From positions 1 to 61,166 of IMG/VR virus record IMGVR_UViG_3300042291_001346: a stretch of DNA of 61,166 bases, one strand, 5' to 3'. The translations under genes were made by a program, and so were the position numbers. The stretch is from a virus (taxonomy: Duplodnaviria; Caudoviricetes). Below the pieces are notes generated by a model, which saw only the letters and a program-made list of their open reading frames with translations, was not told the origin of the DNA and did no database searches. Numbering within the stretch: position 1 is the stretch's first letter; each line of letters begins with the position of its first letter. Below, piece after piece: positions 4,969 to 8,845 of the stretch.

Positions 4969-5207
4969 ATCATATTGTGTTTAGTAAAATACTCTCCGAC
5001 TTCTCCAAGAGTATCAAATTTAATAATATCAAACTTAAGTTCTTGAAAATTATACTGTACTATGGATTTTTTCTTTACAGCTGATTCAAAATTACATATC
5101 TTACATACCCTGTTTCTTCCAAGGTCTGTCTTCAATGTATAGTGCCTCTTGTTCTCAGTAAAATTATCTAATGATAGCATCCTTTTACATTTAAAGCATT
5201 CTTTCAT
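4965..5207 (-). CDS. Small Zn-ribbon protein
   Basis: CFKC..CKIC; ATGA overlaps. Confidence 0.65.
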   Translation of the reverse strand: MKECFKCKRMLSLDNFTENKRHYTLKTDLGRNRVCKICNFESAVKKKSIVQYNFQELKFDIIKFDTLGEVGEYFTKHNMI

Positions 5208-5575
5208 AACAAATTCTCTATTTTATATTTGTAATAAAAGTCTATCTCTGCTTGAGATAAGCTCTCCCATGTATAAGGCTCCTCTTCTAGCATTTCCTTC
5301 TCAGTCTTAAAATCCCATAAAGTCTTTTTACCTAAGATAAAAGTAGATCTAACTTGTTTTTCTGGTACAGTAGTTCTATACTTAGCGTGAATGTGATCGT
5401 CAAATATTTTTTGAATAACTTCTCTACTAGCTCTATGCTTTGTGATAATTTCTGATAATAGTACTCCATCAATTAAATCTTTTTTAATATCCTCAATGTC
5501 TTGAAGAGTATAATTAATTTTATTGATGCCTTTTTTCCATTTACCAGTTAATTTTATAACCGCTTCCGTCTCCAT
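5204..5575 (-). CDS. Hypothetical protein, possible HTH
   Basis: GVLLSEIITKHRASREVIQKI helix pattern. Confidence 0.55.
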   Translation of the reverse strand: METEAVIKLTGKWKKGINKINYTLQDIEDIKKDLIDGVLLSEIITKHRASREVIQKIFDDHIHAKYRTTVPEKQVRSTFILGKKTLWDFKTEKEMLEEEPYTWESLSQAEIDFYYKYKIENLL

Positions 5576-6239
5576 ACAATTTTTTTATTAAATTATCTGC
5601 TTGTTTAAAATTAGGACAATTCCATTCTCTGTTTTCTTGTGCTGCTACACTTGGGCATTCCCACGTAAACACATGTTGATTAGTAAGTAAGGGAGAAAGT
5701 GCTTTAGCTTCCTCGCCCCATAAAAAGAATATAATCCCAGGATCATGCTGTACAAAAGACCGCAAAAGTGCGGTGGTAAATTGATTCCATGGTCGCAGAT
5801 GACTACCTGTTTCTTCTCCCATTACAGTAAAACTTGTGTGTAGGTGAACAACTCCTTGTGACTCCCAATGATCAAAATCATGATCGCATTGCAAATATAT
5901 CGAACTATCGCCACAATATTCTCTAGCAATGCAATCATAGATCTTGTGATAAGAGATATTGTGCATGCAGTCGATGTAGTTATCAGCATAAGGTAACTTA
6001 AAATTACTTGCGTTAATTCCTGGCTCCTTTGTGAGTATTACTACTCTTATTTTTTCTATGGGAATTTCTTTAAGTTTCTTAAAGATGTTAGACTCATGAG
6101 GATGAATCCTTTGCATAGCATACTGCATTGCTAAGAAGTTCATTAGCTTATCCATATAAGGACTCTTTAATGTTTCCTTCAGCCTCATAGCCCACTCTTC
6201 TCCTAACTTATCAACCCAGTATTGCTTTGTTTTACTCAT
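5541..6239 (-). CDS. Family-1 uracil-DNA glycosylase fold protein with non-canonical active site
   Basis: IRVVILTKEPG vs VKVVILGQDPY; HWESQGVVHLHTSFTV vs WAKQGVLLLNTVLTV; SH..W..FT; FFLWGEEA; CPS vs HPS; NFKQADNLI..INW end. Start placed at ATG 6239, just past the SPL stop. Confidence 0.8.
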   Translation of the reverse strand: MSKTKQYWVDKLGEEWAMRLKETLKSPYMDKLMNFLAMQYAMQRIHPHESNIFKKLKEIPIEKIRVVILTKEPGINASNFKLPYADNYIDCMHNISYHKIYDCIAREYCGDSSIYLQCDHDFDHWESQGVVHLHTSFTVMGEETGSHLRPWNQFTTALLRSFVQHDPGIIFFLWGEEAKALSPLLTNQHVFTWECPSVAAQENREWNCPNFKQADNLIKKLYGDGSGYKINW

Positions 6240-6241
6240 AT

Positions 6242-7105
6242 CTAAAAAATATAACGTATTGTGTTCCAAGGGATTATCTTCCCATGCATTTCTTTAAATT
6301 CTTGAATGTATCTACTTTTTAAGTCCCTACGATATCTAACGTTTTTACCGCCATAAGAAGAAATCTTTCCCTCTTGATTATCAGGGGTCCATAGTAACTC
6401 TTCGCCAGCAATTCCGTTAGCCATATTGTAATGATGTTTCTGTTCATTATGAGTAAGAAAGATAACCTCGGATTTAACGAGTTCCTTGTATTCTACATAT
6501 TGATCCATCATCATAAACAGTTCTTCGTAATCTTCTTGCCATCCGTCGTAAATAACTACAGGTGAATAATTAACATGCACATCGTATCCTGCCTCGATAA
6601 AGGCATCGATTGCTTTAATTCTATCAATAATTTCTGCAGTATTTGGCTCTAAGATACTAGATATTTTTTGAGGCATCAAACTAAATCTAATTCTCACCTT
6701 ATATTTAGGATTAAAATTTAGAAAACTAGTAGGCACAATCTTAGTAGCTAAAGTAGCTTTAGCAACAGGGTGGTCTCTAAAGAATTCAAATATCTTTTCC
6801 CAAGGATAGTACTTAGCGTGAAGAGCAAAGTCCTCATTGCATGCTAAATCATAAGTGATGTAAGTATCATCTGTTTGATTAGGCTTCTCTACATCAGCAT
6901 AAAAGTATGCATGGTTATTAATACTAGTTAGGATATCCCCAATGTTCTTTGCTACAGATAAACCTTCAGGTTTGTGCCTCTTCATATAGCAATATGAGCA
7001 CTGTAGCAAGCAGCCGTAGCCAAATGATGGAGTTATATAGTCACTAGATCTACCAGATTCTCTGATAGTAAAAGTTTTTCTGGTTACTTTTTCTAAAATA
7101 CTCAT
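6242..7105 (-). CDS. splB: Spore photoproduct lyase-like radical SAM enzyme
   Basis: GCLLQCSYCY (CxxxCxxC plus Tyr), YDLACNED (Cys141-equivalent), RIRFSL, DRIKAI, SPVVIYDGWQEDY. True start is likely ATG 7105. Confidence 0.85.
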   Translation of the reverse strand: MSILEKVTRKTFTIRESGRSSDYITPSFGYGCLLQCSYCYMKRHKPEGLSVAKNIGDILTSINNHAYFYADVEKPNQTDDTYITYDLACNEDFALHAKYYPWEKIFEFFRDHPVAKATLATKIVPTSFLNFNPKYKVRIRFSLMPQKISSILEPNTAEIIDRIKAIDAFIEAGYDVHVNYSPVVIYDGWQEDYEELFMMMDQYVEYKELVKSEVIFLTHNEQKHHYNMANGIAGEELLWTPDNQEGKISSYGGKNVRYRRDLKSRYIQEFKEMHGKIIPWNTIRYIF

Positions 7106-7126
7106 AGTGATTAAATTAAATAAATA

Positions 7127-7157
7127 AAAAAAGGAGAGCAGCCTAAGCCACTCTCCT
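7127..7157 (-). terminator. Terminator-like hairpin directly upstream of the SPL gene
   Basis: Minus strand GGAGAGTGG-CTTAGG-CTGCTCTCC followed by a T run. Confidence 0.7.
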
Positions 7158-7195
7158 GTACGGTTTCCCGCCTTCTTTGTAAAAGATTGTAGATG

Positions 7196-7220
7196 AAAAA
7201 AGGGGAGCTTAAAACTCCCC
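7196..7220 (-). terminator. Intrinsic terminator overlapping the stop of ORF 7209-7829
   Basis: GGGGAG-TTTTAAG-CTCCCC followed by a T run. Confidence 0.75.
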
Positions 7221-7829
7221 TGTTGGTGATAATTCTTTTTTTGTCGTAATCCTAGACATGATAGAATCATTCAATTCTTCATTTTCCGACTCGATAATTG
7301 GCCATACTTCTTGATCTTTTAGTTCTGCTGGGGATCCAGGTGTACTTAACCTTTCTTCCCAACTGTTTTTGAGTGCCTCTGCTTTATTCAAAATCAACGG
7401 TAAGGTAAATGCTTTACCAGAAAAGAAATTATTCAGTAGAATAGCTTTCTTTGCTTCCGCACTTACTTCAGAATATTTACCGTTTTTGATTAAATTAAAA
7501 TCTTTTTGGCGTTTCTCAGGAACATTAAAGATAAAGATGCAACAGCCTTGACTATCATAATCATCTACATAATTTGGAAATGCTTGAAGAGTTGTATAAA
7601 ATCTATCATAATCTACATCTTGATAATTTTTAACCACTATAAACACATAGTCTACATCTGCTTCATTGTACTTGTTAATACATTTATTCTTGCTGAAAGC
7701 ATTTATAAATCTATTATTAATCTTAGTACGTCCGAATACATCTTTGATATTACAATCAAAGAGTGACTTAGGTATGTTTAATAGTGGAAAAAGAAAAGTT
7801 GCAGTTTTGGTAAATTTTAGTTGACTCAT
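7209..7829 (-). CDS. Hypothetical phage protein
   Basis: 206 aa ORF, ATGA-coupled to the nuclease gene. Confidence 0.75.
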   Translation of the reverse strand: MSQLKFTKTATFLFPLLNIPKSLFDCNIKDVFGRTKINNRFINAFSKNKCINKYNEADVDYVFIVVKNYQDVDYDRFYTTLQAFPNYVDDYDSQGCCIFIFNVPEKRQKDFNLIKNGKYSEVSAEAKKAILLNNFFSGKAFTLPLILNKAEALKNSWEERLSTPGSPAELKDQEVWPIIESENEELNDSIMSRITTKKELSPTGEF

Positions 7830-8845
7830 AATGTAATAGGCATTTTTCCATTTAATTGATAATACTCCATAGGATATTCCCAGGCATTGTTTTCATGAGC
7901 ATATTTATATCTCAAGATAGCTTGTTCAAAGCCTTCATACTCTCGGTTAAATACTAAACCTCCTTCTAAACCTATTTTTATAATATTTTTAGATACTTCA
8001 AATACCATGGGAGAGTTGTATAACTCAGTTTCGACTACAATGTACAAGAAATTAAGTAGCTTATATCCTTTGTCTATCAGCTCTTTAATCTCAGGATGTT
8101 TAGATAGGCCCAAAGTATACACTGCTGCTTGGAAATCATATCTGTACTTCCAGAAATCACTGTTGAACATGCCAACAGTTTTGCCTGTAGACTTGAAGTC
8201 AATTGGTTGAATAGTTTGAGTATTATGATCTATAATAACTCTATCTAATTCACCTTTGAAATTTAATAATTTATGTTCAAAAGCCACAATAAATTTATCT
8301 AAAATGTCGATATTCTTACCAGGCTTCTTTACACAATAAGGAGCAGTAAACTTATCTCCTCGTAATGCCATTGTGCAATTGGTTGCTTTTGCATAATCAG
8401 TTTGAGTAATTAAAGACTTACCCTCTGATAATATTTTAATAGCCATATACTGATTACCTGCTTTAATCATAGCATCTATTCTAGTATCGTCTTTCCAATT
8501 GCCTTGATAGTTTTGAAATTTAACATGTTTTAAGATAATATCTCTTTGGGTATCCCACGTGCCTAAATCTGCTTTTGCCTCTATCAATTCTTCATAGATA
8601 TTGTCTAGTATAACTTTAACGGCATCGGTGACTCCCATACTATCTGGTACAATAGCAAACTTGCTATTGAATTCTTCTCTTGTGCTAGTCAACATTAAGT
8701 CTATAGCACTCCCTAAAATAAAGTGATCCTCAGTAGATGCCTCACGAGCCTCCATCTTCTTTACTGCTTGTAAAAAAGATTGAGGGCTCGTAAGTATTTT
8801 CTTTAGAGTACTTTGATTTAGAGCTCTTATTTCTCTATAATCCAT
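7826..8845 (-). CDS. PD-(D/E)XK exonuclease (RecE/ExoVIII-like)
   Basis: LNQSTLK, GSAID, KGELDRV..IDFKST, YRYDFQAAVY. Confidence 0.85.
   Translation of the reverse strand: MDYREIRALNQSTLKKILTSPQSFLQAVKKMEAREASTEDHFILGSAIDLMLTSTREEFNSKFAIVPDSMGVTDAVKVILDNIYEELIEAKADLGTWDTQRDIILKHVKFQNYQGNWKDDTRIDAMIKAGNQYMAIKILSEGKSLITQTDYAKATNCTMALRGDKFTAPYCVKKPGKNIDILDKFIVAFEHKLLNFKGELDRVIIDHNTQTIQPIDFKSTGKTVGMFNSDFWKYRYDFQAAVYTLGLSKHPEIKELIDKGYKLLNFLYIVVETELYNSPMVFEVSKNIIKIGLEGGLVFNREYEGFEQAILRYKYAHENNAWEYPMEYYQLNGKMPITL

What the first reader, a model, noticed from the sequence alone, without database searches (positions are those of the whole stretch)
5541..7105. Phage UV-repair cassette: spore photoproduct lyase coupled to a rewired UDG
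Seen: an SPL-like radical SAM gene (CxxxCxxC-Y, Cys141-equivalent in DLACNED) ends 2 nt before a UDG-fold gene. Established: spore photoproduct (5-thyminyl-5,6-dihydrothymine) forms in dehydrated A-like DNA, and SPL is classically a spore enzyme. Inference: tightly packed capsid DNA in sunlit water may accumulate this lesion, and the phage may repair its own injected genome using SPL plus a partner that recognises damaged bases.
Basis: partly seen in the sequence, partly recalled or inferred. Interest (0 to 1): 0.85.

Follow-up and report, generated by a model that had tools for sequence, protein, structure and literature searches.

The report
Phage spore-photoproduct-lyase-like repair gene
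An environmental crAss-like phage carries a shortened relative of the bacterial spore enzyme that undoes a UV-made thymine dimer without light, probably as an optional DNA-repair gene, while the degenerate uracil-glycosylase-like gene next to it looks like a chance neighbour and not a partner.

Summary
A 287-aa radical SAM gene (6245-7105, minus strand) ends 2 nt before a 232-aa UDG-fold gene (5544-6239).

The first gene belongs to the spore photoproduct lyase (SPL) superfamily:
- Pfam SPL scores above its cut-off.
- The predicted fold matches Geobacillus SPL (TM 0.87).
- The Fe-S cysteines, both relay tyrosines, the H-donor cysteine, the SAM ligands and the hairpin-tip tyrosine are invariant in 40 of 40 aligned relatives.

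It is a short form. It lacks about 60 N-terminal residues and two phosphate-binding residues.

The family is abundant in environmental crAss-like phage contigs. None was found in 50,697 GenBank phage records, and my searches found no paper describing it.

The "cassette" idea fails:
- The UDG-like gene directly follows SPL in 7 of 80 related loci.
- It is absent from 3 SPL-bearing genomes that are 97-100% complete.
- SPL itself is present in only 6 of 11 records of close relatives.

The UDG-like protein has all five checked family-1 UDG residues replaced.

Best reading: an accessory, stand-alone, light-independent enzyme that reverses thymine dimers. Activity and substrate are untested.

The parts
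6242..7105 (-). Short-form SPL-family radical SAM gene (287 aa, P0001; stop at 6242-6244)
   Evidence: Translation. Pfam PF20903 at 5.4e-22. TIGR03886 at 2.5e-92, matching profile positions 62-346 of 346. AF2 model pLDDT 89.8. Foldseek top hit is Geobacillus SPL 4fhf, TMq 0.87, rmsd 2.4.
6986..7012 (-). CLLQCSYCY: [4Fe-4S] cluster motif C32/C36/C39 with flanking Tyr38 and Tyr40
   Evidence: Aligns with CMGHCHYCY of Geobacillus SPL (C90/C94/C97, Y96, Y98). All five residues are invariant in 40 of 40 aligned sequences.
6839..6841 (-). Cys89, the equivalent of the SPL hydrogen-atom donor Cys140 (Geobacillus) / Cys141 (B. subtilis)
   Evidence: Aligned to Cys140. Invariant in 40 of 40. The residue's role is taken from PMC3467042 (passages read).
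5541..6239 (-). Divergent family-1 UDG-fold gene (232 aa, P0002; stop at 5541-5543)
   Evidence: Translation. TIGR00628 at 1.4e-27 (97 bits, cut-off 185.75). PF03167 at 24.3 bits, equal to its cut-off. PHROG 12143 at 1e-29. PDB UNG 3tr7 at 2.5e-18.
6015..6032 (-). TKEPGI, replacing the UNG water-activating loop GQDPYH (Asp to Glu72, Tyr to Gly74)
   Evidence: Alignments. Glu72 is invariant in 14 of 14 close homologues.
7132..7157 (-). Terminator-like hairpin (11 pairs plus a T run), 27 nt upstream of the SPL start
   Evidence: 3 terminator-like sites found in 5000-8000, against 1.1 +/- 1.1 in shuffles.
7201..7221 (-). Second terminator-like hairpin (9 pairs plus a T run), overlapping the end of the upstream gene 7209-7829

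Best explanation
The gene at 6245-7105(-) encodes a short-form member of the spore photoproduct lyase (SPL) family of radical SAM enzymes.

Proposed mechanism, inferred by homology to Geobacillus/Bacillus SplB:
1. The [4Fe-4S] cluster on C32/C36/C39 reductively cleaves SAM.
2. The 5'-deoxyadenosyl radical abstracts H from C6 of the dihydrothymine half of a methylene-bridged thymine dimer (spore photoproduct or a very similar lesion). The lesion is flipped out of duplex DNA with the help of a beta-hairpin tipped by Tyr251.
3. The bridge breaks.
4. Cys89 donates H to the thymine allyl radical.
5. Tyr40/Tyr38 relay the radical back to regenerate SAM.

In the phage this would be a stand-alone, light-independent, direct-reversal repair enzyme. 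It would be made from the replication module after injection and act on the phage's own UV-damaged DNA (and possibly on host DNA).

It is an accessory gene of the flexible genome. It is present in about half of the records of close relatives and sits at different sites in the replication module.

The UDG-like gene 2 nt downstream is a replication-module gene shared with other crAss-like phages. In this environmental clade its uracil-excision residues are replaced. It more likely serves as an altered-specificity glycosylase or a non-catalytic DNA-binding or replisome accessory protein.

The adjacency arises because SPL was inserted in a variable spot between the UDG-like gene and the conserved 206-aa gene at 7209-7829.

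Shown: family, fold, residue conservation, distribution and lack of synteny. Inferred: substrate, activity, timing, and the role of the UDG-like protein.
For: Family and fold:
- PF20903 at 5.4e-22, above its cut-off. TIGR03886 at 2.5e-92.
- The model's best PDB match is SPL (TMq 0.87). The next radical SAM enzyme scores 0.52-0.54.

SPL-specific residues kept and invariant in 40 of 40 (roles from PMC3467042):
- C90/94/97 to C32/36/39
- Y96 to Y38, Y98 to Y40
- C140 to C89, D143 to D92
- K174 to K122, S195 to S142, R193 to R140
- hairpin Y305 to Y251
- the loop that holds the 3'-thymine (S76-S79) to S17-S20
- C-terminal Y339 to Y285, by ungapped extension of the alignment

Strong purifying selection and abundance:
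- 204 of 208 candidate stretches in IMG/VR encode relatives. The best 80 are 63-97% identical.
- 4115 proteins at E<=1e-5 among 4362 candidates.

Stand-alone gene:
- No neighbour family occurs in more than 26 of 81 viral loci.
- No real neighbour family occurs in more than 26 of 78 cellular loci. The one family seen in 58 loci is an antisense ORF inside the SPL gene.

Accessory gene: 6 of 11 records with at least 91% identical MCP carry it.

UV link of the wider family:
- An SPL-family gene is induced by UVC in the non-spore-former Curtobacterium (PMC12029717, passages read).
- splB homologues carry predicted LexA boxes in alpha- and beta-proteobacteria (PMC3323433, passages read).
- Cellular homologues at 44-49% identity occur in Spirosoma, Fibrella and Mucilaginibacter.

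Absent from GenBank phages: no match in 50,697 records. That collection holds the 116 records whose MCP matches the window's, largely gut and isolate crAss-like phages.
Against: - No member of the TIGR03886 branch or of this short form has been assayed, as far as my searches show.
- The protein scores below the curated cut-offs of TIGR03886 (309.7 against 437.55) and of true SPL TIGR04070 (82.5 against 400).
- In the profile alignment the two residues proposed to bind the intra-lesion phosphate are not kept (R273 to N220, K309 to N255). E268 aligns with I215, although an invariant E213 lies two residues upstream.
- Spore photoproduct is known from dry or A-form DNA. I found no report of it in phage capsids.
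- An SPL-like fold can do other DNA chemistry, as M6 gp53 shows.
- None of the 16 related phage records examined carries a photolyase or a DenV-type gene. There is therefore no independent sign that this lineage invests in UV repair.
- Habitat could not be checked.
Confidence: 0.55

Rival explanations
1. SPL and the rewired UDG form a two-gene UV-repair cassette. The UDG-fold protein recognises damaged bases and hands them to SPL, or processes what SPL leaves.
For: - A 2-nt gap on the same strand, preceded by two terminator-like hairpins, so the pair may be one transcription unit.
- The same junction is kept in the closest relatives L001-L005 and in L032 and L034.
- The UDG-like pocket is altered (Tyr to Gly, Asn to His), so a non-uracil ligand is conceivable.
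Against: - Direct adjacency in only 7 of 80 loci. No UDG-like gene was found in 51 loci that have at least 1 kb of downstream sequence.
- SPL is present without any UDG-like gene in 3 records that are 97-100% complete.
- The UDG-like gene is present without SPL in 4 of 11 records of close relatives, and in phi14:2.
- Where both occur they can be 14-16 kb apart or more.
- None of the 78 cellular SPL-family loci has a UDG-like neighbour.
- The specificity Asn position varies (N, H or P) within the UDG-like clade.
- Bacillus SPL needs no partner (established knowledge).
Confidence: 0.06
2. The SPL-like enzyme is not a repair enzyme. It would be a DNA-modifying radical SAM enzyme, like the phage M6 gp53 isomerase in thymidine hypermodification, or it would remove a host-imposed modification. 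Either way it would help the phage evade restriction or defence.
For: - M6 gp53 models onto the SPL structure and acts on DNA-borne thymine derivatives (PMC8989533, passages read).
- The gene sits in the DNA replication and nucleotide metabolism module, next to MazG-like and nuclease genes.
- Patchy accessory distribution is also typical of anti-defence genes.
Against: - M6 gp53 is only 13% identical to SPL. This protein matches the SPL family at E 1e-92 and keeps the repair-specific Cys and Tyr relay.
- Hypermodification pathways are multi-gene clusters (kinase, aGPT-Pplase, PLP enzyme). No conserved partner gene exists in the viral or cellular loci.
- None of the 37 window ORFs scanned with PHROGs and/or Pfam matched such an enzyme.

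Caveat: the record is estimated 46% complete, and I did not search with dedicated 5-HMUDK or aGPT-Pplase models.
Confidence: 0.15
3. The short form has lost DNA-lesion repair and acts on another substrate (RNA, a nucleotide or a protein), or repairs a different UV or radical lesion than SP.
For: - Loss of most of the N-terminal domain and of R273 and K309.
- Below the equivalog cut-offs.
- The short form is a large, old family of its own, with 83 clusters at E<=1e-30 in the 50% identity library.
Against: - The base-contacting residues (R193, Y339), the thymine-holding loop and the DNA-flipping hairpin Tyr are kept and invariant.
- The fold superposes on SPL over the whole length.
Confidence: 0.15

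Closest known systems
Spore photoproduct lyase SplB of Bacillus/Geobacillus (TIGR04070; PDB 4FHC-4FHG)
   Same: - Radical SAM partial TIM barrel with the CxxxCxYCY cluster motif.
- H-donor Cys at the same position in an A-C-x-x-D context.
- SAM ligands Lys and Ser, lesion-contacting Arg, C-terminal Tyr, and a beta-hairpin with Tyr at its tip.
- Model-to-structure TMq 0.87.
   Different: - About 20% identity.
[quoted passage not shown]
- R273 and K309 are replaced by Asn.
- Encoded by a phage and not under sporulation control.
- Scores 82.5 bits against a cut-off of 400.
TIGR03886 'spore photoproduct lyase family protein' of non-spore-forming bacteria
   Same: - Best-scoring family (2.5e-92).
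- 44-54% identity to homologues in Spirosoma, Neolewinella, Cesiribacter and Paracaedibacteraceae.
- Shared C-terminal RY(I/A)F ending.
- The family is linked to UV response by expression data and predicted LexA boxes.
   Different: - Canonical members are about 346 aa with an N-terminal domain. By my reading, about 58 of the 78 cellular loci are this long form.
- The phage protein matches only profile positions 62-346 and falls below the cut-off.
- In the canonical member P0160 the cysteine sits four residues later (NSDC), whereas the phage form has the SplB-like position.
- No member has a demonstrated activity.
Phage T4 endonuclease V (DenV), the classic phage-encoded UV-repair enzyme (recalled from general knowledge; not fetched)
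   Same: A phage gene that repairs UV lesions in the infecting genome in the dark. It is dispensable and accessory.
   Different: - Unrelated fold and chemistry: a glycosylase/AP-lyase acting on cyclobutane dimers, against radical direct reversal.
- No Pyr_excise homologue in any of the 16 related records examined.
Phage M6 gp53 radical SAM isomerase of thymidine hypermodification (PMC8989533)
   Same: Phage-encoded, SPL-like fold, and acts at the C5 substituent of thymine in DNA.
   Different: - 13% identity to SPL.
- Embedded in a conserved kinase / aGPT-Pplase / PLP cluster.
- The present gene has no conserved partners and keeps the repair relay residues.
Family-1 uracil-DNA glycosylase (UNG), and the UDG encoded in trans by crAss-like phages (e.g. 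crAss001 gp74)
   Same: - UDG fold over about 210 residues.
- Same place in the replication module.
- Viral UDGs encoded in trans are known to contact replicative polymerases (PMC13697223, passages read).
   Different: - The window's protein has Asp to Glu, Tyr to Gly, Asn to His, His to Cys and Leu to Ala.
- crAss001 gp74 keeps GQDPY, Asn and His.
- The score is below all UNG equivalog cut-offs.

Membership tests
Spore photoproduct lyase (SplB, TIGR04070 / Pfam PF20903) | Curated HMM score cut-off | tested here: inconclusive
   PF20903 scores 78.6 bits against a cut-off of 27 (met). The TIGR04070 equivalog scores 82.5 bits against a cut-off of 400 (not met). In the control genomes TIGR04070 passes its cut-off in B. 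subtilis.
Spore photoproduct lyase (SplB, TIGR04070 / Pfam PF20903) | Radical SAM CxxxCx(aromatic)C cluster motif with flanking Tyr96 and Tyr98 | tested here: met
   C32-x3-C36-S-Y38-C39-Y40 aligns with C90...C97-Y98. Invariant in 40 of 40.
Spore photoproduct lyase (SplB, TIGR04070 / Pfam PF20903) | Hydrogen-donor cysteine (Cys140 Geobacillus / Cys141 B. subtilis) | tested here: met
   C89 aligns with Cys140. Invariant in 40 of 40.
Spore photoproduct lyase (SplB, TIGR04070 / Pfam PF20903) | SAM and lesion base contacts: Lys174, Ser195, Arg193, Tyr339 | tested here: met
   K122, S142 and R140 are aligned and invariant. Y285 corresponds to Y339 only by ungapped extension beyond the end of the HMM alignment, because both proteins end two residues later.
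Spore photoproduct lyase (SplB, TIGR04070 / Pfam PF20903) | Intra-lesion phosphate ligands Arg273 and Lys309; Glu268 contact | tested here: not met
   The profile alignment gives N220, N255 and I215 at these positions. Invariant E213, K223 and R257 lie nearby and might substitute. A residue-level structural superposition was not available.
Spore photoproduct lyase (SplB, TIGR04070 / Pfam PF20903) | Beta-hairpin with an aromatic residue at its tip (Tyr305) for lesion flipping | tested here: met
   The model has strands 244-248 and 254-258. Y251 aligns with Y305 and is invariant.
Spore photoproduct lyase (SplB, TIGR04070 / Pfam PF20903) | N-terminal alpha/beta domain (four-stranded sheet, three helices) | tested here: not met
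   The match starts at profile position 64 of 338, which is Geobacillus residue 67. Only the last two strands and the thymine-holding loop remain. The domain description is from PMC3467042.
Spore photoproduct lyase (SplB, TIGR04070 / Pfam PF20903) | Overall fold | tested here: met
   Foldseek hit 4fhf: E 1.3e-18, TMq 0.87, rmsd 2.4 over 289 columns. The next family (PFL-AE) has TMq 0.52-0.54.
Spore photoproduct lyase (SplB, TIGR04070 / Pfam PF20903) | SAM-dependent cleavage of 5-thyminyl-5,6-dihydrothymine | not testable with these tools
   Needs an anaerobic enzyme assay.
TIGR03886 SPL-family protein (non-spore-formers) | Curated equivalog cut-off and full-length match | tested here: not met
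   309.7 bits against 437.55. Only profile positions 62-346 of 346 are matched. The genuine member P0160 scores 566.6.
Family-1 uracil-DNA glycosylase (UNG) | Curated HMM cut-offs | tested here: not met
   TIGR00628 scores 97 bits against 185.75, and four further UNG equivalogs are below cut-off. PF03167 scores 24.3, exactly at its cut-off of 24.3.
Family-1 uracil-DNA glycosylase (UNG) | Catalytic and specificity residues: Asp and Tyr of GQDPYH, Asn of LLLN, His and Leu of HPSPLS | tested here: not met
   The residues are E72, G74, H134, C195 and A199. Within the clade, Glu is invariant in 14 of 14, the Asn position varies (N, H or P), and His is mostly lost. The motif names are recalled. The canonical residues are read from the UNG rows.
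Thymidine hypermodification radical SAM isomerase (M6 gp53 type) | Embedded in a cluster with 5-HMUDK kinase, aGPT-Pplase and a PLP enzyme | tested here: inconclusive
   No conserved neighbour in 81 viral loci. No such hit among the 37 window ORFs scanned. However, the record is 46% complete and no dedicated models were searched.

The most novel reading that the evidence does not exclude
DNA packed at near-crystalline density in phage heads forms spore-photoproduct-type thymine dimers in sunlight. A large group of environmental crAss-like phages would counter this with their own minimal radical SAM lyase. That would be the first virus-encoded radical SAM DNA-repair enzyme, and the first natural role for spore photoproduct chemistry outside spores and desiccated cells.
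Probability: 0.3. Interest if true: 0.8.

Novelty: new variant of a known kind. Interest (0 to 1): 0.55.

Why it matters
Spore photoproduct and its lyase are textbook spore-specific biology. A highly conserved, abundant, N-terminally trimmed SPL in environmental phages has several consequences.

1. It would add a light-independent direct-reversal route to the short list of virus-encoded UV defences.
2. It makes a concrete question testable: which photoproducts form in packaged viral DNA?
3. It offers a minimal 287-aa SPL scaffold for mechanistic work.
4. It gives a marker gene whose patchy presence among near-identical phages could be read against light exposure in metagenomes.

It also flags that the 'UDG' of this environmental crAss-like clade is probably not a uracil glycosylase.

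Tried and rejected
**Searches that found nothing**
- blastn of the 1565-bp region and tblastn of P0001 against 50,697 GenBank phage records gave no match.
- PHROGs has no real family for P0001. The only hit is phrog_13321, of unknown function, at E 7e-6.
- I looked for a conserved partner gene by clustering all ORFs of the 80 viral loci plus the window, and of the 78 cellular loci. None was found. The most frequent 'neighbours' (viral families 1 and 12, cellular family 1) are antisense ORFs inside the SPL gene.
- A hidden N-terminal domain is rejected. The 55-codon upstream extension of the ORF overlaps the terminator-like hairpins, and homologues are 275-311 aa.
- A search for photolyase (PF00875) and T4 DenV-type (PF03013) genes in 16 related phage records found 0 of 16 for each.
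- Literature searches for phage-encoded SPL, or for SP in phage capsids, found nothing relevant beyond M6 gp53. Supplements were not opened.

**Limits on what was done**
- Phylogeny: only the quick, midpoint-drawn tree finished, and the careful search did not. I use it only for 'the 11 sampled phage sequences form one clade (SH-aLRT 98)' and draw no donor or direction from it.
- Complex prediction was not used. My report does not claim binding, and neighbourhood alone is not reason enough.
- A second structure prediction, for the UDG-like protein, was not run because HMM evidence for the fold was sufficient.

- The look-up of sequencing runs was unreachable in five tries. Habitat and expression were therefore not examined.
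Full report
**1. What is there**

The window is a 61,166-base viral record that CheckV estimates at 46% complete. Its terminase, portal and major capsid proteins hit PHROGs 6681, 6547 and 11589. Its capsid protein matches 116 GenBank phage records at 29-31% identity for the 12 listed. These are dominated by crAss-like phages of Bacteroides, Flavobacterium and Cellulophaga. So it is a distant, environmental crAss-like phage.

Positions 2.3-24 kb, on the minus strand, form the replication and nucleotide-metabolism module. It holds:
- PolA
- SF1-like and DnaB-like helicases
- primase
- an AAA ATPase
- a PD-(D/E)XK nuclease
- a weak RusA-like match
- a MazG-like pyrophosphohydrolase

Inside this module the SPL-like CDS runs from 7105 to 6245 (287 aa, P0001) with its stop at 6244-6242. 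Two bases later, at 6239, the UDG-like CDS starts (232 aa, P0002) and ends at 5544.

**2. The SPL-like protein**

*Sequence evidence.* P0001 matches Pfam SPL (PF20903) at E 5.4e-22, 78.6 bits against a cut-off of 27. It matches NCBIfam TIGR03886, 'spore photoproduct lyase family protein', at E 2.5e-92 and 309.7 bits. That match covers only profile positions 62-346 of 346 and falls below the 437.55 cut-off. The true-SPL equivalog TIGR04070 gives 82.5 bits against 400.

*Structure evidence.* An AlphaFold2 model built on 40 homologues has mean pLDDT 89.8. Its best PDB matches are the six Geobacillus SPL entries, with TMq 0.85-0.87 and rmsd 2.4-2.8 over about 290 columns. The next radical SAM enzymes reach TMq 0.52-0.54.

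*Residue mapping.* I used the profile alignment to chain 4fhc, where chain index minus 27 gives Geobacillus numbering. Residue roles come from passages of Benjdia et al. 2012 (PMC3467042).

| Geobacillus SPL residue | Role | Phage residue |
|---|---|---|
| C90, C94, C97 | Fe-S cluster | C32, C36, C39 |
| Y96, Y98 | radical relay | Y38, Y40 |
| C140 | H-atom donor | C89 |
| D143 | cluster environment | D92 |
| K174, S195 | SAM ligands | K122, S142 |
| R193 | contacts the dihydrothymine | R140 |
| S76-S79 | loop holding the 3'-thymine | S17-S20 |
| Y305 | hairpin tip | Y251 |
| Y339 | lesion contact | Y285 (by ungapped extension to the shared C-terminus) |

All of these phage residues are invariant in the 40-sequence alignment.

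Three residues are not kept. R273 aligns with N220, K309 with N255, and E268 with I215. An invariant E213 lies two residues upstream on the same strand.

The first 60-66 residues of SPL are absent. [quoted passage not shown]

So the protein keeps the chemistry-defining part of SPL, including the Cys and Tyr relay. That relay has a known role only in SPL's repair cycle. But the protein is a trimmed variant and fails the equivalog thresholds.

**3. How common it is, and where**

In IMG/VR, 204 of 208 pattern-matched stretches encode relatives. The best 80 are 63-97% identical over the full length. In the 5.8-billion-protein collection, 4115 proteins reach E<=1e-5 among 4362 candidates. The 120 listed are 275-311 aa and 66-89% identical, and JGI's pipeline already names many of them 'spore photoproduct lyase'. 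In the 50%-identity library there are 687 clusters at E<=1e-3 and 83 at E<=1e-30, and most full-length ones are short forms.

Of the 80 viral loci, 75 share at least one further gene family with the window, such as PolA, helicases, primase or nuclease. So the carriers are one broad group of phages.

In contrast, no GenBank phage record among 50,697 gives a tblastn hit at E<=1e-5. That collection includes the 116 records whose capsid protein matches the window's, largely gut and isolate crAss-like phages. PHROGs has no corresponding family.

My literature searches found no description of a phage-encoded SPL. I saw listings and abstracts, read passages of seven papers, and did not open supplements.

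**4. Cellular relatives**

A scan of one genome per species found 78 loci at 37-66% identity. By my reading they divide as follows:
- About 58 carry the long form, with a conserved N-terminal domain of about 60 aa (Spirosoma, Fibrella, Fibrisoma, Mucilaginibacter, Chitinophagaceae).
- About 17 carry the short form (Neolewinella/Lewinella, Cesiribacter, Aureispira, a Kordia MAG, Odyssella/Paracaedibacteraceae, and Janthinobacterium and Neisseriaceae MAGs).
- Three Rickettsia hits are partial.

Two 'MAG' contigs, L086 and L087, carry phage replication genes and are probably phage DNA.

A quick, unrooted tree places the 11 sampled phage sequences in one clade (SH-aLRT 98), apart from a long-form clade (96). 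The careful search did not finish, and I infer no direction of transfer.

The cellular genes have no conserved real neighbours beyond genus-level synteny: at most 26 of 78 loci share a neighbour family. None has a UDG-like neighbour.

**5. Is SPL coupled to the UDG-like gene?**

No. Among the 80 viral loci:

| Position of the UDG-like gene relative to SPL | Loci |
|---|---|
| Directly downstream | 7 (L001-L005, L032, L034) |
| Downstream with a small ORF between | 5 |
| 2-2.8 kb upstream | 5 |
| Not in the fetched flanks, at least 1 kb of downstream sequence | 51 |
| Not in the fetched flanks, less than 1 kb downstream (uninformative) | 12 |

In other loci SPL sits next to PolA, next to the AAA ATPase/HNH pair, or elsewhere.

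At whole-record level, I took five SPL-bearing records with no nearby UDG-like gene. Two have one 14-16 kb away. Three, at 97-100% completeness, have none.

I also examined 11 long records chosen from the 80 closest capsid relatives. These were the contigs of at least 45 kb, and their MCPs are at least 91% identical to the window's. The result was:
- SPL in 6 of 11 records.
- The UDG-like gene in 8 of 11.
- Both in 4 of 11. Two of these have a gap of about 240 nt. In the other two the genes are 16 kb and about 66 kb apart.
- The UDG-like gene alone in 4 of 11.
- SPL alone in 2 of 11.
- Neither in 1 of 11.

All of these records are incomplete by CheckV (35-70%), so absences there are soft.

Where the conserved 206-aa gene (7209-7829 in the window) and the UDG-like gene are both present, they are either adjacent (L018, L021, L022, L025, L026) or separated by a variable set of small ORFs with or without SPL (L016, L028, L029, L032, L034, and the window). 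I read the window's arrangement as an insertion into a variable spot.

Two terminator-like hairpins lie between the 206-aa gene and SPL, at 7221-7201 and 7157-7132.

**6. The UDG-like protein**

P0002 is a family-1 UDG relative. It matches TIGR00628 at 1.4e-27 (97 bits, cut-off 185.75) and PDB UNGs down to 2.5e-18 over about 207 residues. Its closest named relative is Cellulophaga phage phi14:2 gp053, at 31% identity.

Compared with canonical UNG rows, every functional position I checked is replaced:
- GQDPYH becomes TKEPGI (Asp to Glu72, Tyr to Gly74).
- The Asn of LLLN becomes His134.
- HPSPLS becomes CPSVAA (His to Cys195, Leu to Ala199).

In 14 close homologues Glu72 is invariant. The Asn position varies (N, H or P) and the His is mostly lost. 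The gut phage crAss001 gp74 keeps GQDPY, Asn and His.

UDG is a recurrent crAss-like replication gene (PMC7886860, passages read). Viral UDGs encoded in trans are known to bind replicative polymerases (PMC13697223, passages read).

I therefore think this is a lineage-typical replication-module protein that no longer excises uracil efficiently. It may have another specificity, or it may be a non-catalytic DNA-binding or replisome accessory protein. That is inference. Nothing links it to UV lesions.

**7. Most likely function of the SPL-like gene**

The retained relay residues and the whole-length SPL fold point to a stand-alone direct-reversal enzyme for a methylene-bridged thymine dimer. So do the absence of any conserved partner gene and the very strong sequence conservation. 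So does the patchy, accessory distribution among near-identical phages.

The wider family is tied to UV response in two papers:
- An SPL-family gene is induced by UVC in the non-spore-former Curtobacterium aetherium (PMC12029717, passages read).
- splB homologues carry predicted LexA boxes in alpha- and beta-proteobacteria (PMC3323433, passages read).

The absence from the GenBank gut crAss-like genomes is compatible with a light-related role. It is weak evidence, because cultured marine relatives such as phi14:2 also lack the gene.

The main rival is a DNA-modification role, with phage M6 gp53 as the precedent (PMC8989533, passages read). It is less likely. gp53 is only 13% identical to SPL and works inside a conserved multi-gene cluster, and no such cluster exists here.

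The lost N-terminal domain and the missing phosphate ligands leave room for a different substrate.

No photolyase or DenV-type gene occurs in the 16 related records examined.

**8. Verdict**

The SPL assignment is supported at superfamily and mechanism level, but not as an equivalog. The 'cassette' coupling is not supported. The capsid-DNA spore-photoproduct idea remains an untested but now sharply testable hypothesis.

The gene family is a new, trimmed, virus-borne variant of a known enzyme kind. It is auto-annotated in databases but, as far as my searches reach, not described in print.

Noticed in passing
window 7132-7157 and 7201-7221 (-): Two tandem terminator-like hairpins with T runs lie in the 103-nt gap just upstream of the SPL start. 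The second overlaps the stop of the upstream 206-aa gene. SPL plus the UDG-like gene may therefore be a separate or attenuated transcription unit.
   Followed up: partly
P0137 (451 aa, representative-library protein): A short-form SPL is fused to an N-terminal DUF4326 domain (PF14216, E 2.8e-10). This is either a real fusion or a merged gene call. DUF4326 has no known function.
   Followed up: partly
viral loci L016, L018, L021, L028, L032, L034 and window 5541-7829: The stretch between the conserved 206-aa gene (no Pfam or PHROG hit) and the UDG-like gene is a variable spot. It holds different small ORFs, with or without SPL.
   Followed up: partly
L098 and L101 (Neolewinella maritima, same contig, about 18 kb apart): Two nearly identical short-form SPL-family genes occur in one bacterial chromosome region. 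The second is followed by a run of repeated ORFs of one family.
   Followed up: no
L086 (Bacteroidetes MAG contig) and L087 (120-kb contig binned as Rickettsiales): These 'bacterial' MAG contigs carry phage replication-module genes next to a 62-66% identical SPL. They are probably phage contigs that were mis-binned.
   Followed up: partly
L153, L154, L159 (Rickettsia spp.): SPL-family matches cover only residues 49/51/76-287 of the query, at about 50% identity. They may be decaying genes or contig-end truncations.
   Followed up: no
P0160, P0199, P0244 compared with P0001 and P0157: In canonical long TIGR03886 members the cysteine near the H-donor site sits four residues later (NSDC) or is missing (NSDA). 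The phage short form and P0157 have the SplB-like position.
   Followed up: partly
G001 (84,121-bp record holding L007 and L212): The record has direct terminal repeats, so it is presumably a complete genome. CheckV nevertheless estimates 64% completeness. The completeness values for this phage group may be underestimates.
   Followed up: no
window 6711-6899 and 6770-6988 (+): Antisense ORFs inside the SPL gene recur as 'families' in many viral and cellular loci. This happens only because the sense gene is so conserved, and they are not genes.
   Followed up: yes
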